DNA from: Candidatus Tiddalikarchaeum anstoanum
GTDB taxonomy: Archaea; Nanobdellota; Nanobdellia; Tiddalikarchaeales; Tiddalikarchaeaceae
DNA: 64,000 nt
Assembly (NCBI GenBank): GCA_902385255.1
Contig: CABMEV010000003.1
Span: forward strand, 64,813-128,812
Direction: 5' to 3'
The notes beneath the pieces were generated by a model, which worked only from the letters and a program-made list of their open reading frames with translations, was not told the origin of the DNA and searched no databases. The translations under genes and the position numbers were made by a program. Positions 20,231 to 63,146 of this stretch are shown piece by piece. Every line of letters starts with the position of its first letter. The stretch's first letter is position 1.

Positions 20231-20764
20231 TTACCAGGGTTCTCTTTTAACACCTATCTTGTATCCTATAATATTGGCAGCCCTGTGGACTATAGGTGTA
20301 AGTACTAGCGCTATTATTACGATGTACCACGAGTAAGGTGTGTAAAACCTAACTGCTATTAATGAGCCTATTATGAAATCCTCCATGTCAAGAAGCCCCA
20401 TATTAGCGCCTCTTGGAAGACCCATCCTTCTCTTGTAAAAACTGCCAATTAAATCCCCAATCATTGCACCTAAACCAATGAATAAGTAAGACAGAGGAGG
20501 CAAGGAGAGAGCTGTAATAGTTGAAGGAAGGATTGATATGAAATAAGTTACTAATAATCCCATTAGATAACCCATTATGGATGCGAGTATTAATCCTTCA
20601 ATAGTTTTACCGTCGCCAAACACCCGGTTCTTCCCAATCTTCAAGCCGAAATCTAAAGGGTGCTTCTTGAAAGGCATCCTGATAAGAAAAGGAGGAGAAC
20701 CGTTCGCGATATAAGCTGGAATCAGTATTTGAAGCGTTTGAACTATAATATCAGCCAAAATCAT
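20231..20764 (-). CDS. carS: CDP-archaeol synthase (CarS family)
   Basis: 177 aa polytopic membrane protein with AYIANGSPP, HPLDFG, FGDGKTIEG and SFYKRRMGLPRG...DMEDF motifs characteristic of CarS; divergent from a CDP-alcohol phosphatidyltransferase gene. Confidence 0.65.
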   Translation of the reverse strand: MILADIIVQTLQILIPAYIANGSPPFLIRMPFKKHPLDFGLKIGKNRVFGDGKTIEGLILASIMGYLMGLLVTYFISILPSTITALSLPPLSYLFIGLGAMIGDLIGSFYKRRMGLPRGANMGLLDMEDFIIGSLIAVRFYTPYSWYIVIIALVLTPIVHRAANIIGYKIGVKREPW

Positions 20765-24134: not shown

Positions 24135-24704
24135 ATGATATTGCTATTATTGTTCCTTTACTCTTACCTGATAGGCAGTTTTCCTACAGCGTATTTACTG
24201 GTGGAACTTTTTAAGAAAAAAAACATATTAAGACTGGGCGACGGAAACAACGGCGCCTATAATGTGTTAAAAGTTACAAAAAATTTAGGCATAACAAGTA
24301 TAGTCTTATTAATAGACGCGTTTAAAGGTGCACTAGTAGCACTGACTTATTCTTATTTTGAAAATTCAAACACAGCAGTTTTAGTTGCCTTGTCTGGTTT
24401 ACTATTAGGACATGATTATTCAATATGGCTGAATTTTAAAGGAGGTAAGGGCTTGGCTTCAGCATTCGGTGCAATGTTAATATTAGCGCCTGAATTTGTA
24501 ATAATCACATCTGTTCTTTATTTGTTGGCGTTGTTTTTAGTCAGGAAAGCTGAGCTGGCTGGATTAATCATCACCCCCGTACTTTTAGCATTAATGTTCA
24601 TCCTGAGACCTAGCCTCTTACTGCCTGCTTTCATCACAGGTTTATTAATATGCCTGAAAGATATAATTAAACTCTTAAATAGGAAAAAAGTATCAATATT
24701 TTAA
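24135..24704 (+). CDS. plsY: PlsY-like glycerol-3-phosphate acyltransferase family protein
   Basis: GSFPTAYLLVELF...RLGDGNNGAYNVLKV...LLIDAFKGALVA resembles the PlsY pattern (G-S-x-P-x-x-Y ... G-S-G-N-x-G-A-T-N ... D-x-x-K-G). Identified by motif memory only. Confidence 0.5.
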   Translation: MILLLLFLYSYLIGSFPTAYLLVELFKKKNILRLGDGNNGAYNVLKVTKNLGITSIVLLIDAFKGALVALTYSYFENSNTAVLVALSGLLLGHDYSIWLNFKGGKGLASAFGAMLILAPEFVIITSVLYLLALFLVRKAELAGLIITPVLLALMFILRPSLLLPAFITGLLICLKDIIKLLNRKKVSIF

Positions 24705-25642: not shown

Positions 25643-25857
25643 CGAGCATCCACTATTTTTATCGCGCCCCTTGGACAGTACTGCATTGCTGAAATATTCT
25701 GTCCTATTTTTTTTAATTTAATCTTTATAGCGTGCGCTTTTTCATCATCAAGTATTTCCCAATTTCCCGGGCATACCTTGACGCATATACCGCAGCCGTT
25801 GCATTTTTCGCGGTTTACAATTATCCTATAAAATTTCTCTTGCTTTGCCATTCTCAA
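25639..25857 (-). CDS. Small 4Fe-4S ferredoxin-like protein
   Basis: CNGCGICVKVCP plus a distal CP motif (QYCPRGA). Confidence 0.5.
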   Translation of the reverse strand: MRMAKQEKFYRIIVNREKCNGCGICVKVCPGNWEILDDEKAHAIKIKLKKIGQNISAMQYCPRGAIKIVDAR

Positions 25858-26776
25858 ATAACACCTTGTACAATTTGCTAATCAGAGGAGCATTAATCTT
25901 CCTCTTGTCTATTACTTTCTTGACTATCTTAATGGCATTTATGCCTTCAACAGTCTGGCCTACATCTTTAAGCGCTTCCTCAACGCTGAAACCCTTGGCC
26001 AGTTTTTCACCAAAACGCCTGTTCCTGCTGTGAATACTATTGCAAGTTACAATTAAGTCGCCAACACCTGCGAGAGAGTGCACTGTTTCACCGTCGCCTC
26101 CCATTATCTTGACAATTTCAGAAAGTTCTTTAAGCCCCATGCTTATAATCCCTGCCTTTGTATTATCGCCATAACCTAAGCCGTCAACTATCCCTGTCGC
26201 TATCGCGATTATATTCTTTAAGGCGCTGCACCATTCTACTCCAATAATATCACTGGTTGTAGTAATATTATAATACTCATTCTTGAACGCGTTAACCGCT
26301 GATTTTAACGCTTTAGAATCAGTTGATGCAAAGACTACATAAGTTGGAACCTTTAAAGCCACCTCGTTGGCTATGCTAGGGCCCCCTATTGACACTATTT
26401 TATTCTTAACAACATCGCTTATTACCTCGCTCATCCTCTTGTCAGTCTCATCCTCCAAACCCTTGGCAGTGTTAACTATCACTGACTTTTTTGGAATAAA
26501 ATTTGAAGATTTCACTATGACACTTTTTACGATATTGGACGGGAGCGATACCACAACTAGTTCAGCATTCTTCAATGACTCCTCAATGTTTGACGTTGCA
26601 GTAATATCCTTCTTTAATTCAACGCCCTGCAAGTACTTGTTATTCTTATGATTCTGATTGATGTCTTTGTTGACATCATCTTCTATGCTCCACAAAATTA
26701 CTTTATGATTATTATCCCCGAGCAGTTTAGCAATGGCTGTGCCCATATTCCCTGCGCCGAGTATTGTAATATTCAT
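25826..26776 (-). CDS. gpsA: NAD(P)H-dependent glycerol-3-phosphate dehydrogenase (GpsA family)
   Basis: N-terminal ITILGAGNMGTAIA Rossmann motif; central GPSIANEVA, IGVEWCSALKNIIAIATGIVDGLGYGDNTKAG and AGVGDLIVTC...SRNRRFG blocks typical of GpsA. Confidence 0.75.
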   Translation of the reverse strand: MNITILGAGNMGTAIAKLLGDNNHKVILWSIEDDVNKDINQNHKNNKYLQGVELKKDITATSNIEESLKNAELVVVSLPSNIVKSVIVKSSNFIPKKSVIVNTAKGLEDETDKRMSEVISDVVKNKIVSIGGPSIANEVALKVPTYVVFASTDSKALKSAVNAFKNEYYNITTTSDIIGVEWCSALKNIIAIATGIVDGLGYGDNTKAGIISMGLKELSEIVKIMGGDGETVHSLAGVGDLIVTCNSIHSRNRRFGEKLAKGFSVEEALKDVGQTVEGINAIKIVKKVIDKRKINAPLISKLYKVLFENGKAREIL

Positions 26777-29761: not shown

Positions 29762-31864
29762 CTAGTTTAAATTATTGATTTTGATTCTTTTCCTGTTTTC
29801 TAAATTTAGAACTTCTTCATGTATTTTTCTCTCTAAATTTTTTTGGCTTGGAATAAAGCCTGTATATTGTTTTTTGAAGAAATTAATATAACTTATTAAA
29901 TCCTGATAAAATTTTTCTTTTTCCGTATTACTAGAATTTTTCTTTAAAGGCTCCAATGTGTTAAGAGGATAGAAGAAACTTAAGTATTCTTCCGGGCGGC
30001 TGTAAAATTCTTTGTTTAAAACTCCAAAAGGGTATATTGCATTTCCAAAATGCAGGTCTTTCTGCCTGGATTCATAATGTTTTTTTATAAATCTATCCCA
30101 TTCTTTTTTCATATCATCAGGTAAATCGTTTCCTTTCGAGTCTTTTAACTCGCTTGTTTTAATGAGTGTAAAATTTGGTTTGCTTGCTGAATATCTTGTA
30201 TTATACATTTTTGACCAGCCGTTTCCACCTTCTGCTTCTGTTAACAGATTTGGCATATAACCTAATTTATACCATCCTCCAAAACATGAAGTTAAAACAT
30301 TTGCGTTTTTATAGAATTGGTACTTGTTAAATAAAGGATTGGCATTGTAAACCCAGCACTTGTGCAGTTTAAAGTCACGGTCAGGCCCGAATGTTATTAT
30401 TGCTTCAACATCCCGTTCCCCATTGTTAACCTTAGTTTTTCCGCTTTGAATAGGTTCAGTTATTGCAGATACGAAAGGTACTGGGCGATTCTGATACTGT
30501 GCAGGAGGACATGTTGTTCCAGGCATTAATACACCCCTCACCATTGAACCGCTCTTTAAACCTGTCCTCACCATTTTAACGTCATAATCCTCTTGGAAGT
30601 TTACTAAATCCCATTTTAATTTAGGTGTTAATAAATCCATACCATATTTTTTAAGAAGGTGAAAATCAACTTGTTTCTCTGTCCATCCAAGAACATAATA
30701 TAAGTAGATGCCTTCACCAATTACGTTTGTAAACAATTTATTAATCCTTGCACGTCTGCTGTCTGCGAGCAATGCTATTCTTGAAGCAGGTTTTCCATCT
30801 TCATTATTATAATTCACAAGCACTTCTTCCAAAAGTTCATTAGGCATGAAAGGGCTTTCAATAACTTCATATAATGTTAATAATGTTTTAACTGCATCAT
30901 CAACTTTTTGCAGATTAAAACTTTCAACCTCTTGATTTTCAGGCAATTCTATACTTATCCTATGGCCTAAACCATTAGAGTAAGCTGTTCCTTTTTTTAA
31001 TGCAATCATAGTCATTATTACATACTTGGTTATTGCAGCATTATTTTCATACTCAGGTCTTCCGCTTAACTTACTTGTGCACAAAAGCGTTGTGTCTGAA
31101 TATTCAGCATTGTCACGGTACTCTATGTATATTGAACCATTTTTTTTAACAATGACGACCGGCTGTTTTATACTAACCTGGTGGACTAGCTTGTCTTTCT
31201 TTGTTGCGCTGTCAACGTCAAATTTTCCAAAATGGCCTTTATACTGGCCTTTGATGAATATGTCTAAAGCGAATTTTTCATCATTAAAGCCTACAGTGTT
31301 AAAGTCAATTTTTTTCCTGTCATTATCATAAAACTCTAACATGTCAAGTATTGTTCTGTTAGGGGCTTTTTTTCCATCAACTATTTTGTAATCTACAGGC
31401 CTGCTGCCGTAAAAGTATAATACGGCTTTAATATGGTCCATCAAACCGTAAGTTAGGTAATAATCTTCTTGATGGTCTGTCAAAATATCTTGGCGTTCAA
31501 GTCTCGCTCCGAAACATCTTGGAACATTCGGAGCCTCATGGTCATTAAGTTTTTCATTGAAAGGTCCGACTAAGTTGCTGTTAGCATACCTTCCAGAATT
31601 ATATTGTGACTTGACAAAAGAACCTATGACTCCGTCATCAATGCTTTCAGCGTTGCAGAACCTGTTTGTGGAATTATTTAATGGGTCTATATTTGATGAA
31701 ATACCTTTCTCATTGAACTTATCGCGCATATATTGCGTAATTGGAAAAACATTGCCGTATTTTTGCACTAATTTGTTGTATACTTTTATCCCTCCATAAT
31801 TGATTATGAATTCAGTTAGGAACGCTTCCTGTACATTAAGTAATTCATTAAGAGTAATACTCAT
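29762..31864 (-). CDS. Large hypothetical protein (700 aa), no recognisable family
   Basis: Long intact ORF with globular, non-repetitive composition; no signal peptide or TM helix evident; no motif recognised. Confidence 0.3.
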   Translation of the reverse strand: MSITLNELLNVQEAFLTEFIINYGGIKVYNKLVQKYGNVFPITQYMRDKFNEKGISSNIDPLNNSTNRFCNAESIDDGVIGSFVKSQYNSGRYANSNLVGPFNEKLNDHEAPNVPRCFGARLERQDILTDHQEDYYLTYGLMDHIKAVLYFYGSRPVDYKIVDGKKAPNRTILDMLEFYDNDRKKIDFNTVGFNDEKFALDIFIKGQYKGHFGKFDVDSATKKDKLVHQVSIKQPVVIVKKNGSIYIEYRDNAEYSDTTLLCTSKLSGRPEYENNAAITKYVIMTMIALKKGTAYSNGLGHRISIELPENQEVESFNLQKVDDAVKTLLTLYEVIESPFMPNELLEEVLVNYNNEDGKPASRIALLADSRRARINKLFTNVIGEGIYLYYVLGWTEKQVDFHLLKKYGMDLLTPKLKWDLVNFQEDYDVKMVRTGLKSGSMVRGVLMPGTTCPPAQYQNRPVPFVSAITEPIQSGKTKVNNGERDVEAIITFGPDRDFKLHKCWVYNANPLFNKYQFYKNANVLTSCFGGWYKLGYMPNLLTEAEGGNGWSKMYNTRYSASKPNFTLIKTSELKDSKGNDLPDDMKKEWDRFIKKHYESRQKDLHFGNAIYPFGVLNKEFYSRPEEYLSFFYPLNTLEPLKKNSSNTEKEKFYQDLISYINFFKKQYTGFIPSQKNLERKIHEEVLNLENRKRIKINNLN

Positions 31865-33802: not shown

Positions 33803-35137
33803 ATGATTCAGTATTCATTGGATGCTATTGTCGGCAGGGCTAATATTCAAAACGTATTATTAGGTTTGTACAATGAGCAGGGTTTAAATTTTTCCAAAAA
33901 AGGCACCACACTTGTAATACGACCTGACACTTTAATGCCTGCATCTTATATAACTTCAAATAATGTGTATTCTATGCCTGATTTGAAAGGCGTATTATCC
34001 CTTGAACTTCACGGACTAATGAATCCTGAAAAATATGTTGAAGAGAAAGGCAACTGGTTTTCTCATAACTATTTCAACTGGCATCCTATCCCTTTCGTTA
34101 AGAATACTATATTAGTGAAAGCAGGGGCGAAGATTGAAGATATGCATTCAGTTATAGTTTCCCCTTATGCTAAAATAGAAGCTCCAGGATTCTATGAAGA
34201 CAGGGCTTTTGATGACCTTTGCAAGGTTGTTATTAAGAACTGGACTTTTGTAGGCGAACAGGCGCATATCAGAACCAGGTATTTGAAGGATGGCGTATTA
34301 ACCGTTGGTCCCGCAGTTATTGGAAGAAACTGCATGCCTGGCGGAGCCTGCGATATAGGTCCTGGTGTTGTTATGGAAGACGGCTCCACCGTAGGTGCTG
34401 AGCGCTTCCATGGAGTTGTTGAAGCTTACACTTCATACGCGCCGCATTACATGCATAGTGAAGGAGTTATCCCTGAGCCTTTGCTTGAGGAGCGCATAAA
34501 ACTTGCCAAAGTCATAATTGATACGAGTCATAGGCTGTTAAACACTGACTATGAAGGCAGGGAAGTTTTCCTATCATGGAGGACGGGCAGCAATAATATT
34601 TACGTGTCGCCTAATTTTCCACTCAAGGAGAACTCGTTAGAGTACTCGGATTATAACGTGCGTAAAGCAGTCACAGGTAATAATCCAATCATCGGAGTTG
34701 TCTTTACAGGATTAAGCGAGGGGATTAGCAAAATATTCACCCCTAATAATATGGCAAGACTGTTATTTAACAGGGTGACTACTCAGCTTGCAAACAAAGT
34801 CAGGGGTGAAGGTGCACTTAAGAAAATGCTTGACAATTTGACTGGCATGCATGTTGGGGAAAACAGCGATGCAGGTCTTGACACATTCATAGACTATTTG
34901 CATCCGGAGCTTTGCTACGTCGGCAACAATGTCAAGATTCATCCTTATTCAGGAATGCCTGTCCACGCTTACAGGACTATCAAAGTTGGCAGCGTAATCC
35001 AGCATGTATTATCACTTGGAATACTTCACATCAGCGACGACTGCGAGTTCGGAAGGACATTGTTCTATCCGGGAACGTACATCGCGAAAGGCAAAAAGTT
35101 CGGCAAGAACTTCACATTGCACGGAGTATTTTCGTAA
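33803..35137 (+). CDS. Hypothetical protein (444 aa) with Gly-rich segment
   Basis: GPAVIGRNCMPGGACDIGPGVVMEDGSTVGAE glycine-rich stretch; family not recognised. Confidence 0.3.
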   Translation: MIQYSLDAIVGRANIQNVLLGLYNEQGLNFSKKGTTLVIRPDTLMPASYITSNNVYSMPDLKGVLSLELHGLMNPEKYVEEKGNWFSHNYFNWHPIPFVKNTILVKAGAKIEDMHSVIVSPYAKIEAPGFYEDRAFDDLCKVVIKNWTFVGEQAHIRTRYLKDGVLTVGPAVIGRNCMPGGACDIGPGVVMEDGSTVGAERFHGVVEAYTSYAPHYMHSEGVIPEPLLEERIKLAKVIIDTSHRLLNTDYEGREVFLSWRTGSNNIYVSPNFPLKENSLEYSDYNVRKAVTGNNPIIGVVFTGLSEGISKIFTPNNMARLLFNRVTTQLANKVRGEGALKKMLDNLTGMHVGENSDAGLDTFIDYLHPELCYVGNNVKIHPYSGMPVHAYRTIKVGSVIQHVLSLGILHISDDCEFGRTLFYPGTYIAKGKKFGKNFTLHGVFS

Positions 35138-52104: not shown

Positions 52105-52887
52105 TCACTTTAAATTTTTAATTATTTCACTAATTTTGTCTCTTATTTTAAAGCTTTCCTCAACGCATTGCTCAATTTCTTTGACATTAAAGCCGCCTTT
52201 CCCGCCTTTCTGCATTGCGTTTATTTCGCCTTCACTGCAGGTTATAGTAAGCCTGGCGTCGCTAATTTGTTCTTCATCAGAGTCCGGGTCTATAAGGAGG
52301 GTGTCATCTATTTTTACAAACGTTGTTGGTATTGGAACCTTTATGAAAGGTATTTTTCCATTGCTCCACTCGCCTAATACTACCTGGTTCTTAGCATCCA
52401 ATTTTGGCATTTTTGCATTCTTTAATGCTGAAATTGCCGCTAAGCCGCAGGCGTCGATTAAGTTGCCGTCATTGTTTAATATATATACGTCAACGAATAC
52501 GTTCCAGACTTTCTCTCCTGGAATTATGCATAACTTGTCTATATCTATCGCTCCGCTCTCCCTTATTCCCCTGTCGACAACCCTTGATAATTCTATAGCA
52601 TCCTCTGTTGGAGGTCCTGGTTCGAACTTCACATCTGATATGGCGCTTAATTCAACATTGCATACCAAGTTTCCGGAATTAGGAGTGTCAGGGTAAGGTG
52701 TTCCCACACTCATCTTCACACCTGCTATTACCTGCGTGTCGCCTATCCTTAACAATGCGCTTCCTTCTGCGTTCTTGCTGACATCAGTCTCTACGCTTAT
52801 TGGCCTGTAATCGTTCATTCTTCTGTCCCTGTTTCTTAACTTCTTGTCAGCCAGTGCAAGTATGTATTCTCTTAATTCTTTCTTCAT
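52105..52887 (-). CDS. rrp42: Exosome complex component Rrp42 (RNase PH-like, non-catalytic)
   Basis: RNase PH fold motifs (DYRPISVETDV..AEGSALLRIGDTQVIAGVK; EPGPPTEDAIELSRVVDRGIRES; LNNDGNLIDACGLAAISAL). Confidence 0.75.
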   Translation of the reverse strand: MKKELREYILALADKKLRNRDRRMNDYRPISVETDVSKNAEGSALLRIGDTQVIAGVKMSVGTPYPDTPNSGNLVCNVELSAISDVKFEPGPPTEDAIELSRVVDRGIRESGAIDIDKLCIIPGEKVWNVFVDVYILNNDGNLIDACGLAAISALKNAKMPKLDAKNQVVLGEWSNGKIPFIKVPIPTTFVKIDDTLLIDPDSDEEQISDARLTITCSEGEINAMQKGGKGGFNVKEIEQCVEESFKIRDKISEIIKNLK

Positions 52888-54257
52888 TTCTTGTCATCCC
52901 CGATTTTTTTGGCTGCAACTTTTGCTTCTTTTAACAATTTGCTCGTAATCTCCCCTTCATCAGCGTACTTTTTCAGGACGTCCTCGTTTATGAGTTCTCC
53001 TTTCCCGTCTTTTTTAACGACTGCTAATTCCAGGTTTATAGTTGCAGCTTTCTCAGTCTGCAGTTCTACAGGCGTGTTTATTATGTATACTTCACCTTTC
53101 AGTTTATTATCCTCAGAGTAGAACGAATGCTTCGTGTACCATGCGTCTTTTTTAAGCTCTGTCAGCGCATAATCGCCTCTGTCAAAGATAATGTCTAATC
53201 CGTTATACTTTGAGCCGCTTTTCATGAAGCGCTTCAGCACTATCTTGTTCTCATCTCTTTTTTCAATCCTTCCTTTTAAGAAATTTGTAGTGCCATCAAG
53301 CCTGTACTCTGCAGCAAGGTATAAGTCTCCTTCCTTCGGAGCTTTTGATAAGACAAAACTCTCTATTTCCTTGTTTAATTTCTTCTCATTGAATCCTGCC
53401 TTTATCAAATTCTCGCTGAAGTCCACGACGTTGTGGAAATTATCTGTCTTGTAAGTGTGGTGGTTTTCAACTGTTGGCTTAACTTCACGTCTTAATGCAT
53501 CAAGAGTTTCTTTTGCAGTCTTGTCAAACCGCATATATACAGTTATTAATCCTTTTCTTATCAGTTTAGGGCCTTCTTCTTTTTCGAATTTCTCTTTTAT
53601 CTTGTCGTAATCCTTGTATAAGTCGTCGATTTCTTTTTTCAATTCGTCATCTTTCTTGTCCTGCGCGCTGCTCTTCCATAATATGCCCCATCCTTCCTTG
53701 CATTTCTCGTCAGTTATCTTGTTCAGTCTCACTGACTCTTCCCTATCTCGGATGTTGCTGCTTAATTTCGTGAATCCTTTCTGGATTAGTACAGTATCAG
53801 GTCCGAAGATGTGTATCTTCGTGCTTAATGTGTAGCATTCAGGGTCTTCCTCTTTTAACTGCACTAGGATTTTCTCCCCTTCCTTCACATAGCCCCAGTA
53901 ATCTTTGAGCGGAAGGAGTCCTATCTTTTTCAGTCCCAAGTCTACGTGAATATTCTTAGTGTTAGGGTCCAGTTTTATTATCTTACCAAGGTATATGTGG
54001 CCGGATTCTTCTTTTTTTACGGCTACGTGCTCCACATCATCCATTATTACCTTAGTTACTTTCTCGCTCTCTTCGCCTTTTATTACTATTCCATTCTTGT
54101 CAGCTAAGTCATGTATAATAGTATCATAGTCCTCGTCGAATTTGGCTTTCTTGAAAGAATCTTTTACATTCTCGCTTGGACTGCTTACTTTTATTTTATT
54201 TTTCAGTAGTAGCTGTGTTAATGCACTACTATAAATTCCTCTGATTTTTACACTCAT
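52884..54257 (-). CDS. FAU-1-like RNA-binding protein (RNase E/G-like, DUF402-containing family)
   Basis: N-terminus MSVKIRGIYSSALTQLLL resembles archaeal FAU-1 N-termini as recalled; 457 aa. Translationally coupled (4-nt overlaps) between Rrp41 and Rrp42. Confidence 0.5.
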   Translation of the reverse strand: MSVKIRGIYSSALTQLLLKNKIKVSSPSENVKDSFKKAKFDEDYDTIIHDLADKNGIVIKGEESEKVTKVIMDDVEHVAVKKEESGHIYLGKIIKLDPNTKNIHVDLGLKKIGLLPLKDYWGYVKEGEKILVQLKEEDPECYTLSTKIHIFGPDTVLIQKGFTKLSSNIRDREESVRLNKITDEKCKEGWGILWKSSAQDKKDDELKKEIDDLYKDYDKIKEKFEKEEGPKLIRKGLITVYMRFDKTAKETLDALRREVKPTVENHHTYKTDNFHNVVDFSENLIKAGFNEKKLNKEIESFVLSKAPKEGDLYLAAEYRLDGTTNFLKGRIEKRDENKIVLKRFMKSGSKYNGLDIIFDRGDYALTELKKDAWYTKHSFYSEDNKLKGEVYIINTPVELQTEKAATINLELAVVKKDGKGELINEDVLKKYADEGEITSKLLKEAKVAAKKIGDDKK

Positions 54258-55054
54258 TTTTCAATCACTTCGTATTTTTTCTTTATAGCTTGTTTCATCA
54301 TTTCATGTATTTTTTTGCATGCTTTAGTGCCTGCGTTTATCGCCTGCATTAATTCATTCTTTGTTACCTTACCATCTAATTGTAACAGTGTTATCTCATC
54401 AAGTGCAGGTATGTATGCTATTGGGATATCCGTCGCTCCTCCGCCTTCATGGTAGTCCTCTTCGTGTTTTGTGATGTCAACGCATATCTTATCATCTATT
54501 TTTCCAACTGCAACAGCCGGCACTAATCCTCTCATCATTATCCCAGCATCTGCAAGCGCTAATGATGATGCTATTACTGCTGCGCATCTTGAACCTGCGT
54601 CTGCCTGCGGGATTTCTATGAATAATTGTATCATACTTTTTGGGTATTCTTCTACAAATATTGCTTTCTCAACAGCATTTTTTATGACAAGCCCTAATTC
54701 TATGCTTCTCCTGCTTGGTCCGGGTCTTGCCCTGTCTGTTACGCTGAAGCTCATCAGGTCATAATAGCATTTTATTATTAATTTTTCAGTGTCTTCCATG
54801 TGTTTAGGCCTAACTTTCTGCGGTCCGAAAACCCCTGCTATTGCGACTGTGTCCCCAACTTGGACTCTTGCGCTCCCGTCAGCATTGTCAAGAACTCCGA
54901 TATCCATAGATATTGGCCTTAATTCGTCAAATCCTCTCTTGTCGAATCTTTTTTCGTAACCGTGAGTTTGTTTCTTGACAGCCACTTTCTTGTTTTCCTT
55001 CTTTGGTTCTTTTTTAACTGTTTTTTTAATTTGTGCTTTTTTCTTTGTAACCAT
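54254..55054 (-). CDS. rrp41: Exosome complex exonuclease Rrp41 (RNase PH-like, catalytic)
   Basis: DKRGFDELRPISMDIGVLDNADGSARVQVGDTVAIAGVFGP and QADAGSRCAAVIASSLALADAGI motifs. Confidence 0.8.
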   Translation of the reverse strand: MVTKKKAQIKKTVKKEPKKENKKVAVKKQTHGYEKRFDKRGFDELRPISMDIGVLDNADGSARVQVGDTVAIAGVFGPQKVRPKHMEDTEKLIIKCYYDLMSFSVTDRARPGPSRRSIELGLVIKNAVEKAIFVEEYPKSMIQLFIEIPQADAGSRCAAVIASSLALADAGIMMRGLVPAVAVGKIDDKICVDITKHEEDYHEGGGATDIPIAYIPALDEITLLQLDGKVTKNELMQAINAGTKACKKIHEMMKQAIKKKYEVIEK

Positions 55055-57562: not shown

Positions 57563-58567
57563 TTATTTATTAATTATTAAGGTCTTTTGCCTGCCTGATT
57601 CTATGTCTTTACTTAGTACTCGTTTTTCATACTCTTTAACTGATTTGTTTAAAAAAAGAACTATCCCTTCTTTAATTCTCCTTATATCTTCTGGATTAAT
57701 ATTTGCATGGGAGTCAAGGTCATCGTACCCCTCAACTGCTTCGCCCAAGGAGTTGAACTTAACGCCGTAAATAGCATGTAAACTATAACCATCTTCATCG
57801 GATAAAATCAGCATGTGCATATTTTTATTTCTTAAGTAATTCACTCTCTTTTTTTCATTTTTTAACTTGATAATATCACCCAAATCATAAAATTCGAATA
57901 CTTTTTTCTTTTTTGATAACTCTTTTATAGATACTTCTTCAGGAATGACTGCAAGGTCTGCTAAAAGGCATGTTGAATCATGATTTTGTTTTGTGTAATT
58001 TAATAATTCCTCGATTTTCAGAACTTCAGCTTTTTTGTCTTCACATAAATGCTTTATTTCTTTTTCAATATCCTTTACTCTCTGTTTCTCAAAATCTTCC
58101 AGTCTTATGGCGTCATCATCAGTGAATGTTTCTTTGCCAAAATATGTTCTCACAATTTTTTGCAAGTCTTCAACATCAGCTTTCTTAATCTCACTCTCCG
58201 CTGCCTTGACAATTACAGCGCCATTTTCACCTATTTTTACGGCGCTGATGCAGTTCCAGTTGCCGTCGTAAAATGAGTGTAATTTATTATTTATATTGTA
58301 CATGATGTTTTCTGTTATCTCATAAAAGTTTGAGCACGGGATTTTTTTGGATGTAAAGTATTCTTTTGGAATTTTTGCAGAGTTAAAGAACGCAGATGTA
58401 AAACACTCATATGCTTCTTTTTTTTCTTCGTTAACCTGCATTTCTTTGGGAAGCTTTTCTAATTCAAGCAGTTCTTTAGACTTTTTTATATATAATTGTT
58501 CCAGTTTCTCTACGGCTTCGTTTTTAGGTAAGCCTCTAATCGAGTTTCTAAACGCGTCAAAATTCAT
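57563..58567 (-). CDS. Hypothetical protein
   Basis: 334 aa, charged, no motif recognised. Confidence 0.25.
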   Translation of the reverse strand: MNFDAFRNSIRGLPKNEAVEKLEQLYIKKSKELLELEKLPKEMQVNEEKKEAYECFTSAFFNSAKIPKEYFTSKKIPCSNFYEITENIMYNINNKLHSFYDGNWNCISAVKIGENGAVIVKAAESEIKKADVEDLQKIVRTYFGKETFTDDDAIRLEDFEKQRVKDIEKEIKHLCEDKKAEVLKIEELLNYTKQNHDSTCLLADLAVIPEEVSIKELSKKKKVFEFYDLGDIIKLKNEKKRVNYLRNKNMHMLILSDEDGYSLHAIYGVKFNSLGEAVEGYDDLDSHANINPEDIRRIKEGIVLFLNKSVKEYEKRVLSKDIESGRQKTLIINK

Positions 58568-58700: not shown

Positions 58701-59198
58701 ATGTCACCTACCTCGCTTGAAAAAATAATGGATTTTTACAACTCCAGAATGGACTGTTTAAACACGGCATTATCATGGTTTAAGGAGTACAATCCCGGTT
58801 TTATTGCAGTCTTTAAAAATGACAATAAAGCGCTTACCCTTGTCAGGTGCGAGGATATAAGTGAACAATTAAAAAAAGTATTATACAGGGCTAATAGGGT
58901 GTTAAAGAGCGAGCACCCTATTGATGCAGTTGACGTGGTTTTTAATTCTGAATCTAAAAAAGACAATTTATCAATTAATATGATTAGTTTCATATCTAGT
59001 ATTAATAATGGTTTTTACTACACTGATTATATAACATTCCCGCTTAATGAGCCTAGTATTGACTTAAGAATTATCAGGGAAAACAGCATAGCCTCAGGTT
59101 TGTACATTTACTTAACATCAAAGTGCTGGAATAACTCATTTAAAAGGGAAAAGGTAAAAGTGGACAGGTTCATTAGAAGCAGGCAGTTTACGTTTTAA
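58701..59198 (+). CDS. Hypothetical protein
   Basis: 165 aa, no motif recognised; preceded by TATTTATATAAG promoter-like element. Confidence 0.25.
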   Translation: MSPTSLEKIMDFYNSRMDCLNTALSWFKEYNPGFIAVFKNDNKALTLVRCEDISEQLKKVLYRANRVLKSEHPIDAVDVVFNSESKKDNLSINMISFISSINNGFYYTDYITFPLNEPSIDLRIIRENSIASGLYIYLTSKCWNNSFKREKVKVDRFIRSRQFTF

Positions 59199-59257: not shown

Positions 59258-59341
59258 TGCGGGGTTGCCGGAGTGGTCAAACGGGCTAGCTTCAGGAGCT
59301 AGTGGCTTAGTGCCTGCGCGAGTTCGATACTCGTACCCCGC
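59258..59341 (+). tRNA. tRNA-Leu (anticodon CAG), class II with long variable arm; no encoded CCA
   Basis: Folded by hand: acceptor GCGGGGT/ACCCCGC, D-stem CCG/CGG, anticodon stem CTAGC/GCTAG with loop TTCAGGA, 15-nt variable arm, T-arm GCGAG-TTCGATA-CTCGT, discriminator A. Confidence 0.8.
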
Positions 59342-59390
59342 ATATTTCTTTAAGGTTTTTTGGTCCAGATTTCTTCTTAAAGAAAGATGG

Positions 59391-59477: not shown

Positions 59478-60077
59478 ATGATTGACAGCATTAATATAAG
59501 GGGTTTGGATTTTAAGCTTTCAAATATTGAAGATTGCAATTCGATAAAGTCTCATGTTCAAACTAAGTCAGATCCTTTTTCAGTTGCGGTCCGCGACTTG
59601 CTTAGAGTTTATGAAACTGTTAATTCGTTAACAAATTATTATGAAGAATTAAATAAGTTAAACAACGATTTATACAGAATTAATGACAATGACTTGCTTC
59701 TTGGCAAAATACACGAATTTGGCAATGTATTAAGCAAAGATTTTGTTATGCTTGATAACATTTACAAAAATATAAATGAGTCAATACGTGACGTTTTAAA
59801 ATATAAATCCGTTGTCGCCCCAAATTATGACCAAACGGAACTTCTTTTTTCAAATATTGAAAGATTCACAAGCCACCAAATTAGAATACGCAATATGACG
59901 CCTTATTTATTGCAGCTTCTTCATTCACCTAATATTAATAATCCAAATGTGGCAAAGAATATGGAATTTTTTATGAAATCGTTTTCAACTGAATTAGATT
60001 TTTTCAAAAATGATTATGAACCAATGACAACGCAATTATCAAGGTGCATTAAAAACTTAGTACCAAAAATAACTTAA
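59478..60077 (+). CDS. Hypothetical protein
   Basis: 199 aa, no motif recognised. Confidence 0.25.
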   Translation: MIDSINIRGLDFKLSNIEDCNSIKSHVQTKSDPFSVAVRDLLRVYETVNSLTNYYEELNKLNNDLYRINDNDLLLGKIHEFGNVLSKDFVMLDNIYKNINESIRDVLKYKSVVAPNYDQTELLFSNIERFTSHQIRIRNMTPYLLQLLHSPNINNPNVAKNMEFFMKSFSTELDFFKNDYEPMTTQLSRCIKNLVPKIT

Positions 60078-60078
60078 A

Positions 60079-61353
60079 TTATTCGCCTTTGAAGTCGACT
60101 ATTTTGAATACTGGCCATTTGAGCTTTTTTCTGCCTTTTAATTCCGGAAGTTCAACTATGAATCCTACTTCAACAACTTTTCCGCCAAGTTTTTCTATCA
60201 AATTCCCTGCAGCTAAAGCTGTTCCTCCAGTAGCCAGTAAATCATCGAGCAATAATATTCTCTGGCCATGCTTGATAGCATCCTTATGTATCTCAATGGT
60301 AGCCTGTCCGTACTCTAAGTCATAAGATTCACTGACTGTTTCAGCAGGAAGTTTCCCCTTCTTACGGATTAATATGACACCTTTCCCTAGTTTTGAAGCG
60401 AGCGCCGAGGCGAGAACAAAACCCCTGCTTTCAATTCCAGCTATTAAGTCAATATCAATATTCTTATAATGTTCTTCAAGAATATCCAGCATCAATCTGA
60501 AACCTTCAGCATCCTTCAATAATGTTGTAATATCCCTAAACATTATTCCTTTCTTCGGCCAGTCTGGAACGGTGCGAATAAGACTCTTAATATATTCCTC
60601 TTCTTTTTTTTCATTTAATGATTCTACAACCTTGACCAATAATTTCTTCATCTTATCGGCATTCTCATTGAATATCTTCAGTATGTCATCCCAGCTTACT
60701 GGCATTTCATCAGTCTTCCAGCAGTCATAATCCGTAGACATCGCAATTCCTGCATATTCAATTTCTGCCTCCCTTGCAAGGATAGCTTCAGGAGCAATAC
60801 TCATGTTTATCACATCAGCACCCCATTGCCTGAACATTTTGCTCTCAGCTACGGTTGAAAACCTAGGCCCTTCAATGGTTACTACCGTGCCTTCTTTGTG
60901 AAAATTGTACTTTAAACGTTCGCACTCGTCTATGATTTTTTTCCTCAAGAATCCGGAAAAAGGATTTGCCAAGCTTACGTGTTTCGGGCCGTCCTTGAAG
61001 TCGTCAAAAAAAGAAAGTATCCTCCTTCTTGTAAAATCAATAAAGTCAGATAATACAACAAAATCTCCGCGCCCAATCTCCTCGCGCAGTGAACCAACTG
61101 CTGTTGTTGCTATTATATGAGTGCATCCTAGATTCTTTAATGCCTGTATGTTTGCCCTGTTATTTACAAAAGTGGGAGGGATTTGGTGTTTTTTTCCATG
61201 CCTGGCAAGTATGTAAACATCGGTATTGTTTAACTTGCCGTATGTTATTGTTGAGGAAGGTTTGCCATAAACAGTGTCTATATCCACTTCTTTGCAGTCT
61301 TTCAATATCTTCGGGTCATCCAATCCGCTGCCGCCAATAATGCCCACTTTCAT
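60079..61353 (-). CDS. Fusion protein: S-methyl-5'-thioadenosine phosphorylase (N-terminal) and adenine phosphoribosyltransferase (C-terminal)
   Basis: N-terminal half: KVGIIGGSGL...HGKKHQIPPTFVNNRANIQAL...ATTAVGSL...TIEGPRFSTVAES...GADVINMS (MTAP). C-terminal half: ESRGFVLASALA...VILIRKKGKLPAE...LLLDDLLATGGT (APRT PRPP-binding). Confidence 0.75.
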   Translation of the reverse strand: MKVGIIGGSGLDDPKILKDCKEVDIDTVYGKPSSTITYGKLNNTDVYILARHGKKHQIPPTFVNNRANIQALKNLGCTHIIATTAVGSLREEIGRGDFVVLSDFIDFTRRRILSFFDDFKDGPKHVSLANPFSGFLRKKIIDECERLKYNFHKEGTVVTIEGPRFSTVAESKMFRQWGADVINMSIAPEAILAREAEIEYAGIAMSTDYDCWKTDEMPVSWDDILKIFNENADKMKKLLVKVVESLNEKKEEEYIKSLIRTVPDWPKKGIMFRDITTLLKDAEGFRLMLDILEEHYKNIDIDLIAGIESRGFVLASALASKLGKGVILIRKKGKLPAETVSESYDLEYGQATIEIHKDAIKHGQRILLLDDLLATGGTALAAGNLIEKLGGKVVEVGFIVELPELKGRKKLKWPVFKIVDFKGE

Positions 61354-61449
61354 GAAAAATAATGAAATTATCACTTAATTAAAAAGCTTTTATTAAAAAT
61401 CGTATTAAAAAGATATTTAAACAATAATTTTTAGCTACTTTTACTGCAA

Positions 61450-62106
61450 ATGGTTTCAACCAATTTCAAATACCAAGTATTCGCCCAAAACGGGGCCGAG
61501 CGGTTATTAAAATGCGTAAAATTTGGAATGCAGAAATCAGTGGATATATATAATGAAGTGTTAAACAGGAATGAATCACTGGATTTTAAAGTGAGAGATT
61601 TTTCAGAAATAAATTATAACCCTGAAATTATGCATATAAAAAATCCGCATATGAAAATAAGCCTGATATACATAAAAATGCAGAAAGAATTGTCACAGTC
61701 AAACTCTTATCTTATATTCTTGATTAACAGATTCAGGGACGAATATTTGAACCATGAATACTTAGGCCATACGAATGTTTTTCCTGCGAATGAGGGGCAG
61801 AAGCAGAATGTTCTAATAACGCTGAACTTGTTCATAAACGAGTCATTGAAGAATAAGGATTTCAATTTCATATCTACATTTTTAGGATTCCATGAACAAA
61901 TGCATGCAATAACTGATGCAGCAGAGAGAAACGGCATGGAACACTGCACTAACCTTGGATGCGGCCTGGCAGACATGTCCACTCCAGGCTGGGATGCAGA
62001 TACGCATATTAAGAATATGTCTTATACGTTTTCAAGAGAGAAGCGTTTCGAGATTTGCAGCTACTGCCGAGGCCTTGTAGAGCAGAGTTTTAACCTAATG
62101 CAATAG
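61450..62106 (+). CDS. Putative HExxH zinc metallopeptidase-like protein with C-terminal Cys cluster (SprT/Wss1-like candidate)
   Basis: FHEQMHAITD (HExxH) followed by CTNLGCG ... CSYCRG. Family assignment by motif only. Confidence 0.35.
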   Translation: MVSTNFKYQVFAQNGAERLLKCVKFGMQKSVDIYNEVLNRNESLDFKVRDFSEINYNPEIMHIKNPHMKISLIYIKMQKELSQSNSYLIFLINRFRDEYLNHEYLGHTNVFPANEGQKQNVLITLNLFINESLKNKDFNFISTFLGFHEQMHAITDAAERNGMEHCTNLGCGLADMSTPGWDADTHIKNMSYTFSREKRFEICSYCRGLVEQSFNLMQ

Positions 62107-62147: not shown

Positions 62148-63146
62148 ATGCTCACTAAGTTTGGGAATAAAATAAAGCAGTTCGCGTACGGAATCAGAAT
62201 AATGTTCAATAATGAAGAATATCACAGGGTTTTAAACCACGACGAATTCCTGAAGAGAAAAACAGAGAAGTATCGGCAAAAACTTCAAATGTATAAGAAG
62301 GAATCTTTCAACCGCGGAAAGTATGAAGGCCAGGATGAGTATAAAAGGTATATTAATGATAATTTTTCCAATCTTGCAGAGAATTTGGGAATAACAATTC
62401 TTCCCGGCGACTGCTGTCTCGAAGATGTATTGTTAAAAATAAAAGAGGCTGAATCTTTTAAAAAATTACTCGGCAAAAAAGAAACAAGATATGATGCATT
62501 AACGGCGTTATGCATGAAGAAGATGAATTCAACATTCACTCCGTACATCAACCAGCTTACGAGTTATGTAAAAGAGTACTCCCCTGAAGTTGTTGAAAAA
62601 GTCGAGAAAGGTGTATTAAACGGATTAATAAATTACTTATCGCTCTGCTGCAACTTGGTTAACTTTGATGATTATGCATTATTAGACACTAGTTATATAA
62701 GTAAATTCAGGGAGACTAACAGTTCCAAGGCATTAAGGTGTGATAATCTGCATCCTAACATTAAGGGGATGATACTTCCAGTAGCTGCAATAAAGGAATA
62801 CTACGCGATGATTAATGAATACCGCGACATCAGAATTGCAAAAAGAGTCAAAAGCGACATCATACAATTATTATCAAACCCGAATCTTATGATTATCCCT
62901 ATGTCTAAATCTTTAGAGTACTTGGACAAGGAGACTGTTGACATATTCTGCGATGAGAATAACGGGCATAAGAAGTATCACAAAGCTGACTTACAGATAA
63001 TAAGCTTTTATAAAAAATTCGGCCACCAATTCTCGAACTTATACCTGCTTGCCATAGACCAGGATTTATGGGCTGAGATGGAAAAATTATCCAAATCCAG
63101 GAATAACCTATCTATTATATCAAACAAGCTTACTAAAATTTTATAA
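62148..63146 (+). CDS. Hypothetical protein
   Basis: 332 aa, no motif recognised. Confidence 0.25.
   Translation: MLTKFGNKIKQFAYGIRIMFNNEEYHRVLNHDEFLKRKTEKYRQKLQMYKKESFNRGKYEGQDEYKRYINDNFSNLAENLGITILPGDCCLEDVLLKIKEAESFKKLLGKKETRYDALTALCMKKMNSTFTPYINQLTSYVKEYSPEVVEKVEKGVLNGLINYLSLCCNLVNFDDYALLDTSYISKFRETNSSKALRCDNLHPNIKGMILPVAAIKEYYAMINEYRDIRIAKRVKSDIIQLLSNPNLMIIPMSKSLEYLDKETVDIFCDENNGHKKYHKADLQIISFYKKFGHQFSNLYLLAIDQDLWAEMEKLSKSRNNLSIISNKLTKIL

What the first reader, a model, noticed from the sequence alone, without database searches (positions are those of the whole stretch)
60079..61374. MTA phosphorylase fused to adenine phosphoribosyltransferase in one polypeptide
The N-terminal ~260 aa carry MTAP signatures and the C-terminal ~160 aa carry the APRT PRPP-binding motif, in one uninterrupted frame. 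MTAP releases adenine from methylthioadenosine and APRT converts adenine plus PRPP to AMP, so the fusion would channel adenine within one salvage route. I am not aware of this architecture being characterised, but cannot confirm novelty without a search.
Basis: partly seen in the sequence, partly recalled or inferred. Interest (0 to 1): 0.55.

Follow-up and report, generated by a model that had tools for sequence, protein, structure and literature searches.

The report
Fused MTA phosphorylase–adenine phosphoribosyltransferase gene
A tiny symbiotic archaeon (DPANN group) encodes two consecutive adenine-recycling enzymes as one linker-less protein; the fusion is real and common in its relatives, arose separately in opposite order in ultra-small CPR bacteria, and I found no published study of it.

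Summary
One ORF on the minus strand (60079-61353; true start ATG 61353, 424 aa) carries a complete MTAP domain (aa 1-247) and a complete type-I APRT domain (aa 249-424). Both pass curated NCBIfam cut-offs and keep their catalytic residues.

It is not a lost-stop artefact. The protein is 100% identical to a Ca. Tiddalikarchaeum anstoanum entry. All 120 best database clusters, whose named members are Nanoarchaeota, Woesearchaeota or Pacearchaeota, have the same architecture, and the junction length is tightly fixed.

The AlphaFold model shows an ordered helix-kink-helix junction with no flexible linker.

Close relatives in Nitrospirota, Desulfatiglans, records titled Bathyarchaeia and some DPANN carry the same two genes as a separate adjacent mtnP-apt pair. 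That pair is the likely ancestor.

A reverse-order APRT-MTAP fusion is widespread in Patescibacteria (CPR), sometimes with a NUDIX insert. A long-linker form occurs in sequences that look like marine eukaryotes. That makes at least three independent fusions.

The likely function is MTA, 5'-deoxyadenosine or adenosine plus phosphate giving adenine, then adenine plus PRPP giving AMP, in an organism reported to lack de novo purine synthesis. Channelling is not proven.

Databases label the protein as MTAP only. Ten literature searches found no description of the fusion.

The parts
60079..61353 (-). Complete coding sequence of the fused protein: 424 aa plus the stop codon at 60079-60081, with the start ATG at 61351-61353.
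   Evidence: ORF list and sequence. 100% identity and coverage to the 424-aa NCBI protein of Ca. Tiddalikarchaeum anstoanum.
60613..61353 (-). MTAP (S-methyl-5'-thioadenosine phosphorylase) domain, aa 1-247.
   Evidence: Pfam and NCBIfam matches. 52% identity to human MTAP over about 250 aligned columns, with TM-score 0.82-0.88 normalised to the target. Residue mapping.
60718..60735 (-). Adenine-binding motif T207-D208-Y209-D210-C211-W212, equivalent to human T219-D220-Y221-D222-C223-W224.
   Evidence: Alignment to human MTAP 1CB0. T207, D208, D210 and W212 are invariant in 77 fused homologues.
60583..60612 (-). Junction: a short helix (aa 248-257) linking the last MTAP helix (aa 221-246) directly to the first APRT strand (aa 260-263). 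It contains an A8 run on the coding strand at 60604-60611.
   Evidence: AlphaFold2 model: block pLDDT 82-90 across the junction and no segment below 50. Motif-to-motif spacing is 50-51 aa in 82 of 98 homologues. Homopolymer check.
60082..60609 (-). Type-I adenine phosphoribosyltransferase (APRT) domain, aa 249-424.
   Evidence: NCBIfam TIGR01090 and NF002634 above their cut-offs. Full-length alignment to APRT chains 5B6H, 4MB6 and 2DY0, E about 1e-50.
60220..60258 (-). PRPP-binding motif I-L-L-L-D370-D371-L-L-A374-T375-G-G377-T378.
   Evidence: Read directly from the sequence. Aligned to VLVVDDLLATGGT in solved APRT chains. D370, D371, A374 and T378 are invariant.

Best explanation
The gene encodes a bifunctional purine-salvage enzyme.

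1. The N-terminal MTAP domain cleaves a 6-aminopurine nucleoside with phosphate. The substrate is 5'-methylthioadenosine, and probably also 5'-deoxyadenosine and perhaps adenosine. The products are free adenine and (5-substituted) ribose-1-phosphate.
2. The C-terminal APRT domain immediately converts that adenine plus PRPP into AMP and pyrophosphate.

Removing adenine pulls the reversible phosphorolysis forward. It also keeps a scarce purine base inside a cell that cannot make purines de novo.

The fusion is typical of Nanoarchaeota-type DPANN archaea. It most likely arose from an adjacent mtnP-apt gene pair by loss of the mtnP stop codon and of the MTAP C-terminal tail. That welded the last MTAP helix onto the first APRT helix without a linker.

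What is shown: the architecture, intact catalytic residues, conservation, the ordered junction, the split relatives, and independent fusions elsewhere. What is inferred: the actual activities, the substrate range, kinetic coupling or channelling, and the oligomeric state.
For: - Both domains exceed curated equivalog cut-offs.
- MTAP residues map as follows (human to this protein): R60/H61/H65/T93/A94/F177/S178/M196/D220/D222 to R51/H52/H56/T84/A85/F165/S166/M184/D208/D210. T18 becomes S9 and T197 becomes S185. All are invariant or at least 90% conserved in 77 fused homologues.
- The APRT motifs FRDIT, ESRGF, RKxGKLP, SYxLEYG and DDLLATGGT are all present and conserved.
- All 120 best clusters are fused in the same order, with a median of -1 extra residues between the two domain models.
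- The junction spacing is fixed at 50-51 aa in 82 of 98 homologues.
- The model has pLDDT 90.1 and a helix-kink-helix junction.
- Split mtnP-apt pairs at 50-65% identity, separated by roughly -10 to +80 nt, occur in Nitrospirota, Desulfatiglans, Haliea, records titled Bathyarchaeia and some Woesearchaeota. Bacterial context is confirmed. In Desulfatiglans a nucleobase permease follows the pair in the same orientation.
- Tail-less split MTAPs end exactly where the fusion junction lies.
- Independent fusions exist: APRT-MTAP in 93 of the 120 proteins listed, whose named members are Patescibacteria or Parcubacteria, in a bacterial genomic context. A long-linker MTAP-APRT occurs in eukaryote-like sequences.
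- The source organism is reported to lack de novo purine synthesis and to keep only the last step of PRPP synthesis (PMC8561730).
- A TYW3 gene in the window implies a wyosine pathway, one step of which releases MTA (established knowledge).
Against: - There are no biochemical data for any member.
- pTM is only 0.67, so the relative orientation of the two domains is uncertain.
- The fused gene has no conserved gene neighbourhood in DPANN that would tie it to a pathway.
- No MTA-producing or MTR-1-P-consuming gene was found in the 64-kb window.
- The human C-terminal helix carrying L279, which closes the 5'-alkylthio pocket of the neighbouring subunit, has no counterpart. V233 is replaced by W. 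Preference for MTA over adenosine is therefore unproven.
- Proximity alone rarely gives true channelling.
Confidence: 0.8

Rival explanations
1. Nucleoside scavenging rather than MTA recycling. The phosphorylase half mainly cleaves host- or environment-derived adenosine or deoxyadenosine. The ribose-1-phosphate feeds PRPP synthesis or the pentose-bisphosphate (RuBisCO-linked) route, and APRT retains the base as AMP. This would amount to an adenosine-kinase bypass in ultra-small symbionts.
For: - S9 matches S12 of the adenosine-using S. mansoni MTAP. The 5'-pocket cap residue (human L279, S. mansoni Q289) is absent.
- The organism lacks de novo purine synthesis and a pentose pathway.
- The same two enzymes are fused independently in CPR bacteria, a group for which a nucleoside/RuBisCO route has been proposed, as it has for DPANN (PMC5113843, PMC6389311).
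- In Desulfatiglans the split pair sits beside a nucleobase permease and a purine nucleoside phosphorylase.
Against: - The best NCBIfam matches are MTAP equivalogs. Scores for PNP models are far below their cut-offs.
- T84 is human-like (human T93), not the S. mansoni Asn.
- The remaining 5'-pocket is hydrophobic (W221, I224, L225).
- No RuBisCO, R15P isomerase, ribose-1-P kinase or pentomutase gene lies in the window.
Confidence: 0.3
2. Neutral consequence of genome compaction. Two already adjacent or overlapping genes lost the stop codon in a streamlined genome. Both activities persist but there is no kinetic coupling, and the only benefit is 1:1 co-expression.
For: - Tail-less split relatives have a stop and a start only a few nucleotides apart or overlapping (L013, L014, L015), so a single indel would fuse them.
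- Fused and split forms interleave in NJ trees.
- DPANN and CPR genomes are highly compact.
Against: - The junction length is tightly conserved and structurally ordered.
- The fusion has been retained across clusters that share only about 60% identity.
- The fusion arose at least three times in different orders and lineages, which points to selection.
Confidence: 0.3
3. One half is a catalytically dead scaffold or regulatory domain.
For: Some divergent fused paralogue clusters do have degenerate motifs. P0122 has ADCDSW and VGEVLATGETT. P0126 has lost the PRPP motif and part of the flexible loop.
Against: In the window protein and in 77 close homologues, every catalytic motif of both halves is invariant or nearly so.
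Confidence: 0.04
4. Assembly or sequencing artefact: two genes joined by a lost stop or a frameshift, for example at the A8 run in the junction.
For: An A8 homopolymer lies exactly at the junction (60604-60611). A +/-1 error there would end the frame at aa 255-269.
Against: - The in-frame fusion is found in more than 120 independent clusters and in seven species genomes that lack this homopolymer.
- The junction length and sequence are conserved.
- The APRT half has no start codon of its own at the position used in split relatives.
Confidence: 0.01

Closest known systems
Human MTAP (PDB 1CB0, 5EUB) and archaeal MTAP II of Sulfolobus (2A8Y, 1V4N) and Aeropyrum (1WTA)
   Same: Same fold and family: 52% identity to human MTAP and 46-48% to the archaeal enzymes. 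The phosphate, ribose and adenine-binding residues are the same, including the DYD motif. H125, the equivalent of human H137 contributed by the neighbouring subunit, is conserved, which suggests the trimer is kept.
   Different: The C-terminal tail is missing: the human last helix with L279, and the archaeal Cys-rich CxC tail. APRT follows directly. T18 becomes S, T197 becomes S and V233 becomes W.
Bacterial type-I APRT (E. coli 2DY0; related chains 4MB6, 5B6H, 7XI2)
   Same: Aligned end to end at E about 1e-50, with all PRPP, PPi-loop, flexible-loop and hood motifs present.
   Different: It is not a free-standing protein. Its N-terminal helix is continuous with the MTAP C-terminal helix.
Split mtnP-apt gene pairs (Nitrospirota L010/L019/L020/L023, Desulfatiglans L017/L018, Haliea L015, records titled Bathyarchaeia L004/L005, some Woesearchaeota L013/L014)
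   Same: Same two genes in the same order, 50-65% identical in each half. This is the probable ancestral state.
   Different: Two separate ORFs with a stop codon. Most of these MTAPs keep a 5-15 residue Cys-containing tail.
APRT-MTAP fusion of Patescibacteria/Parcubacteria (e.g. P0325, P0286, P0295)
   Same: The same two enzymes in one polypeptide, in another lineage of ultra-small, biosynthetically reduced organisms.
   Different: The order is reversed, there is a linker of about 10 residues, and the MTAP CxC tail is retained. Some members have a NUDIX domain inserted (P0356, P0361). This is an independent fusion event.
Schistosoma mansoni adenosine/MTA phosphorylase (4L5A etc.; PMC5147791)
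   Same: An MTAP-family enzyme that serves adenosine salvage in a purine auxotroph. It shares the Ser at the human T18 position.
   Different: It is not fused. It has Asn at the human T93 position and Gln289 in a C-terminal helix that is absent here.

Membership tests
MTAP (S-methyl-5'-thioadenosine phosphorylase, TIGR01694; trimeric PNP_UDP_1 class) | Profile score above the curated equivalog cut-off, over the full domain length. | tested here: met
   TIGR01694 scores 281.4 bits against a cut-off of 274.85, covering aa 3-244 and profile positions 2-239 of 240. Other MTAP equivalog models (NF006334 and others) score high but below their own cut-offs.
MTAP (S-methyl-5'-thioadenosine phosphorylase, TIGR01694; trimeric PNP_UDP_1 class) | Phosphate-binding residues (human T18, R60, H61, T93, A94, T197). 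| tested here: met
   S9, R51, H52, T84, A85 and S185. The two Thr-to-Ser changes are conservative. All six are invariant or at least 90% conserved in 77 homologues.
MTAP (S-methyl-5'-thioadenosine phosphorylase, TIGR01694; trimeric PNP_UDP_1 class) | 6-aminopurine specificity through Asp220 and Asp222, where PNP has Asn instead. | tested here: met
   D208 and D210 lie in TDYDCW and are invariant. The methylthioinosine phosphorylase model scores below its cut-off (199 against 223).
MTAP (S-methyl-5'-thioadenosine phosphorylase, TIGR01694; trimeric PNP_UDP_1 class) | Hydrophobic 5'-alkylthio pocket, including the residue from the neighbour's C-terminal helix (human L279). | tested here: inconclusive
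   H56, P60, I224 and L225 are kept. V233 becomes W221. The L279 helix has no counterpart because APRT begins at aa 249.
MTAP (S-methyl-5'-thioadenosine phosphorylase, TIGR01694; trimeric PNP_UDP_1 class) | Phosphorolysis of MTA to adenine and MTR-1-P; homotrimer or hexamer. | not testable with these tools
   Only a monomer model was possible. H125, the equivalent of the trans-acting human H137, is invariant.
Type-I adenine phosphoribosyltransferase (TIGR01090 apt) | Profile score above the curated equivalog cut-off, over the full domain length. | tested here: met
   TIGR01090 scores 223.4 against 185.85. NF002634 scores 246.7 against 170 and covers aa 249-423.
Type-I adenine phosphoribosyltransferase (TIGR01090 apt) | PRPP motif (acidic pair plus the ATGGT loop), the PPi loop (RGF), the flexible-loop Glu-Tyr, and the adenine hood (FRD). 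| tested here: met
   D370, D371, A374, T375, G377 and T378; R310, G311 and F312; E347, Y348 and G349; F272, R273 and D274. All are invariant or at least 90% conserved.
Type-I adenine phosphoribosyltransferase (TIGR01090 apt) | Adenine + PRPP to AMP + PPi activity; homodimer. | not testable with these tools
   No assay and no multimer modelling were available.
Substrate-channelling bifunctional enzymes (e.g. tryptophan synthase, DHFR-TS) | A physical tunnel or electrostatic path, or kinetic evidence that the intermediate does not equilibrate with bulk solvent. | not testable with these tools
A pTM of 0.67 leaves the domain orientation uncertain.

The most novel reading that the evidence does not exclude
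The fusion could be a convergently evolved adenine-retention module of ultra-small symbionts. It occurs as MTAP-APRT in DPANN, APRT-MTAP in CPR, and as a third version in sequences that look like marine eukaryotes.

The DPANN form joins a trimer-forming domain to a dimer-forming domain through a rigid helical junction with no linker. It might therefore assemble into a defined higher-order particle, either a D3 hexamer or a cage-like oligomer. Such a particle would bring the adenine-releasing and adenine-consuming sites together and give true channelling.
Probability: 0.15. Interest if true: 0.7.

Novelty: new variant of a known kind. Interest (0 to 1): 0.4.

Why it matters
1. Annotation. Every named member I saw is labelled only as MTAP or purine nucleoside phosphorylase. 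Metabolic reconstructions of DPANN and CPR genomes can therefore miss their adenine phosphoribosyltransferase and under-call purine salvage capacity.
2. Biology. Recurrent, independent fusion of the same two enzymes in the two great radiations of ultra-small, purine-auxotrophic organisms is a strong comparative-genomic signal. It suggests that holding on to adenine released from SAM by-products or scavenged nucleosides is under selection there.
3. Enzymology. A natural linker-less fusion of a trimeric and a dimeric enzyme is a tractable test case for intermediate channelling and for symmetry-driven assembly. It could also serve as a one-protein catalyst for making AMP analogues from nucleosides.

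Both chemistries are textbook and the functional link between them is well known. This is an interesting variant, not a new kind of system.

Tried and rejected
- Lost-stop or frameshift artefact: rejected.
- Programmed slippage at the junction A8 run to make an MTAP-only product: a +/-1 shift would stop at aa 255-269, but the run is not conserved in other fused genes. Rejected as a conserved feature.
- Conserved gene neighbourhood of the fused gene in DPANN (three long contigs): none found.
- Window-wide search for partner genes (PRPP synthase, pentomutase, MtnA/e2b2, RuBisCO, spermidine synthase): none found in 64 kb.
- The source contig beyond the window could not be fetched, because the exact protein is not in the contig index.
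- NJ trees of each half and of the concatenate could not resolve whether the DPANN fusion arose once, with later fissions, or several times. No bootstrap or ML tool was available.
- I first read as showing the fusion in Nitrospirota, Desulfatiglans, Haliea, and records titled Methanosarcinales and Bathyarchaeia. Frame and stop analysis showed these are split adjacent genes.
- The AlphaFold DB fold search, meant to show how UniProt names such proteins, was unavailable.
- Ten literature searches found no description of the fusion. Subscription-only papers are not covered.
Full report
**1. What is there**

The minus strand carries one uninterrupted ORF at 60079..61374. The upstream GTG is only the first possible start. 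The ATG at 61351-61353 gives a 424-aa protein beginning MKVGIIGGSG. This is the start used by every homologue and by the identical NCBI entry.

- Pfam finds PNP_UDP_1 over aa 2-244 (1.3e-44) and Pribosyltran over aa 286-421 (1.7e-16).
- NCBIfam places the N-terminal half in MTAP (TIGR01694, 281.4 bits, cut-off 274.85).
- NCBIfam places the C-terminal half in adenine phosphoribosyltransferase (TIGR01090, 223.4 against 185.85; NF002634 covering aa 249-423).
- The two domain models abut, so there is no linker.

The start is 61353. MTAP is about 247 aa and APRT about 176 aa. The junction lies near nt 60610.

**2. Whose genome, and is the fusion real?**

The protein is 100% identical to an entry named 'S-methyl-5'-thioadenosine phosphorylase [Candidatus Tiddalikarchaeum anstoanum]'. 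That organism is a DPANN (Nanoarchaeia) MAG from groundwater (PMC8561730).

The window is archaeal throughout. It holds RFC, TBP, MCM, aIF2-beta, aIF5B, the exosome/proteasome/SBDS superoperon, an RNase P p30 homologue (below the Pfam cut-off) and TYW3.

All 120 best database clusters carry both Pfam domains (61-75% identity, 97-100% coverage, 423-450 aa). A local domain map shows all of them in the order MTAP-APRT, with a median of -1 residues between the two domain models. Source names, where given, are Nanoarchaeota, Nanoarchaeia, Pacearchaeota or Woesearchaeota.

The spacing between the MTAP DYDCW motif and the APRT IRTxPDFP motif is 50-51 residues in 82 of 98 sequences.

An A8 run lies exactly at the junction in the window (60604-60611), but it is absent from other fused genes. 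The fusion therefore cannot be a homopolymer error.

**3. Are both halves competent?**

MTAP half. Alignment to human MTAP (1CB0; 52% identity) maps every catalytic residue:

- R60/H61/H65/T93/A94/F177/S178/M196/D220/D222 become R51/H52/H56/T84/A85/F165/S166/M184/D208/D210.
- T18 becomes S9 and T197 becomes S185.
- The trans-acting H137 becomes H125.

APRT half. It aligns end to end with solved bacterial APRT chains and keeps the FRD hood, the ESRGF PPi loop, RKxGKLP, the SYxLEYG flexible loop and the DDLLATGGT PRPP motif.

All of these positions are invariant or at least 90% conserved in an alignment of 77 fused homologues (A1).

One real difference concerns the MTAP C-terminus. In human MTAP the C-terminal helix closes the neighbour's 5'-alkylthio pocket with L279. 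In the adenosine-using S. mansoni enzyme the equivalent residue is Q289 (PMC5147791). That helix has no counterpart here, because APRT starts at that point. V233 is replaced by Trp. S9 matches the S. mansoni Ser12. The base specificity (6-aminopurine) is therefore clear, but the preference among MTA, 5'-deoxyadenosine and adenosine cannot be inferred.

**4. Structure**

An AlphaFold2 model built on A1 has mean pLDDT 90.1 and pTM 0.67. The last MTAP helix (aa 221-246) is followed by a one-residue kink. A short helix (aa 248-257) then leads to the first APRT strand (aa 260-263). No segment falls below pLDDT 50, so the junction is ordered and not a flexible tether. The moderate pTM leaves the relative domain orientation uncertain.

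Foldseek against the PDB aligns only about 250 columns, which is the MTAP half (TM-score 0.82-0.88 normalised to the target). Sequence search of the PDB finds chains matching one half or the other, never both. No two-domain structure has been solved.

**5. Origin: an mtnP-apt gene pair**

A scan of one genome per GTDB species returned 23 loci whose match covered the full or nearly full query. Frame and stop analysis divides them as follows.

- True single-ORF fusions: only L001-L003 and L006-L009. These are titled Pacearchaeota, Woesearchaeota or simply 'archaeon', with GC 28-38%.
- Two adjacent genes, mtnP then apt, with a stop codon and a gap of roughly -10 to +80 nt: records titled Nitrospirota (L010, L019, L020, L023), Desulfatiglans (L017, L018), Haliea (L015), Bathyarchaeia (L004, L005), Methanosarcinales (L011, L024), Magasanikbacteria (L012), and some Woese- and Nanoarchaeota (L013, L014, L021).
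- L016, also titled Methanosarcinales, has the reverse gene order, apt then mtnP, as separate genes.

Bacterial context was verified for two of the split loci. L018 has a class-A PBP upstream, and the pair is followed in the same orientation by a nucleobase permease. L023 has HldE upstream.

Most split MTAPs end in a short Cys-containing tail. Several (L012-L014, L024) are tail-less and stop exactly where the fused proteins continue into APRT.

The simplest history is an adjacent, co-transferred mtnP-apt pair in which a small indel removed the stop. NJ trees interleave fused and split forms, so the number of fusion and fission events within this clade is unresolved.

**6. Independent fusions elsewhere**

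The search of 50%-identity representatives, combined with local domain mapping, revealed proteins with the opposite order.

Following one of them up showed that 93 of the 120 listed proteins are APRT-MTAP fusions. They have a median length of 451 aa, a linker of about 10 residues, and a retained CxC tail. Source names, where given, are Patescibacteria or Parcubacteria.

- One sits on a 621-kb contig beside gyrB, SecE-NusG-L11 and GatB.
- Two clusters have a NUDIX domain inserted between the halves (P0356, P0361).

A third type has a human-like MTAP, a spacer of about 45 residues, and an APRT whose closest unfused relatives come from marine eukaryote transcriptome catalogues (P0146, P0392, P0393).

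The same two enzymes have therefore been fused at least three times. Two of those events are in the two radiations of ultra-small, biosynthetically reduced organisms.

**7. Most likely mechanism**

From established biochemistry, MTAP releases adenine from MTA, and many MTAPs also accept 5'-deoxyadenosine. APRT then converts adenine and PRPP to AMP.

The source organism is reported to lack de novo purine and pyrimidine synthesis and a pentose pathway. It retains only the last enzyme of PRPP synthesis.

MTA would still arise from diphthamide and wyosine-type tRNA modification (established knowledge), and a TYW3 gene lies in the window. 5'-Deoxyadenosine would arise from radical-SAM enzymes.

I therefore read the protein as a bifunctional adenine-retention enzyme. 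The APRT half removes the product of the reversible phosphorolysis and keeps the purine in the nucleotide pool.

- Shown: architecture, residue conservation, ordered junction, split ancestors, convergent fusions.
- Inferred: activities, substrate range, kinetic coupling, oligomeric state.

The trans-acting H125 is invariant and the APRT motifs are intact. Trimeric MTAP and dimeric APRT interfaces may therefore both persist, which would force a higher-order assembly. This is speculation that needs multimer modelling or experiment.

**8. Rivals**

- (a) The phosphorylase half mainly serves adenosine or nucleoside scavenging. This would link to PRPP regeneration or to the pentose-bisphosphate/RuBisCO route proposed for CPR and DPANN. 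It is compatible with S9 and the missing pocket cap. It has no support from pathway genes in the window.
- (b) The fusion is a neutral by-product of genome compaction. This is plausible mechanistically. It is weakened by the fixed junction length and by recurrent independent fusion.
- (c) One half is inactive. This is true for some divergent paralogues (P0122, P0126) but not for this protein.
- (d) Artefact. Rejected.

**9. Known or new?**

The sequence and hundreds of relatives are already in public databases, but they are named only as MTAP or purine nucleoside phosphorylase.

- Ten full-text searches found no description of a natural MTAP-APRT or APRT-MTAP fusion.
- The genome paper for this organism does not mention MTAP, APRT or salvage.
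- Two central CPR/DPANN nucleoside-pathway papers do not mention the fusion either.
- The library lacks most subscription journals, and I could not query InterPro or UniProt. 'Undescribed' therefore holds only within those limits.

I classify it as a new variant of a known kind, of moderate interest.

Noticed in passing
window 24135-24704 (+), 25826-26776 (-), 20231-20764 (-): Bacterial-type lipid genes lie a few kb from the archaeal CDP-archaeol synthase (CarS) and a CDP-alcohol phosphatidyltransferase. The bacterial-type genes are PlsY (glycerol-3-phosphate acyltransferase) and GpsA (NAD-dependent sn-glycerol-3-P dehydrogenase). This is a mixed archaeal and bacterial membrane-lipid toolkit in a DPANN genome.
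   Followed up: no
P0356 (605 aa), P0361 (614 aa; locus L085 5001-6845): Triple-domain APRT-NUDIX-MTAP proteins occur in Patescibacteria. A further stand-alone NUDIX gene lies just downstream in L085. This suggests nucleotide or nucleoside-diphosphate hydrolysis is coupled to the same salvage module.
   Followed up: partly
P0122 (419 aa), P0126/P0272 (398-399 aa; P0272 = NCBI MCK9568014.1, Pacearchaeota): Divergent fused paralogue clusters have degenerate catalytic motifs. P0122 has ADCDSW and VGEVLATGETT. P0126 has lost the PRPP motif and part of the flexible loop. They may be pseudo-enzyme derivatives of the fusion.
   Followed up: partly
P0146, P0392 (510 aa), P0393 (484 aa): MTAP-(~45 aa)-APRT fusions with a human-like MTAP half. 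The closest unfused APRT relatives come from marine eukaryote transcriptome catalogues (MMETSP, EukProt). This is probably an independent eukaryotic fusion.
   Followed up: partly
P0138, P0167, P0228, P0260; P0169, P0171, P0214: Other APRT architectures appear among the representatives. Some are tandem APRT-APRT proteins of about 360-415 aa. Others are APRT preceded by an unassigned N-terminal region of about 230 aa. Geobacter and Desulfuromonadales loci also match from query residue 215 onwards.
   Followed up: no
L018 5425-9107 (record titled uncultured Desulfatiglans sp.): The split pair is part of a purine-salvage cluster. The order is mtnP, apt, a Xan_ur_permease-family nucleobase permease, and a second, divergent PNP_UDP_1 phosphorylase on the opposite strand.
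   Followed up: partly
window 52884-54257 (-): A 457-aa ORF with an RNase E/G-family domain sits between the two RNase PH-type exosome subunit genes (52105-52887 and 54254-55054), inside the exosome/SBDS/proteasome superoperon.
   Followed up: no
window 767-3613, 9865-11877, 12006-14270, 29762-31864, 33803-35137; also 57563-58567, 58701-59198, 59478-60077, 61450-62106, 62148-63146: Many large ORFs (up to 948 aa), and all five immediate neighbours of the fused gene, have no Pfam match.
   Followed up: no
window 60604-60611: An A8 run on the coding strand lies exactly at the domain junction. A +/-1 slip would give an MTAP-only product of about 255-269 aa. The run is not conserved in other fused genes, so it is probably incidental.
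   Followed up: yes
window 59258-59343 (+): A tRNA-Leu (CAG) gene lies about 700 nt from the 3' end of the fused gene, on the opposite strand, with one 199-aa ORF between them.
   Followed up: no
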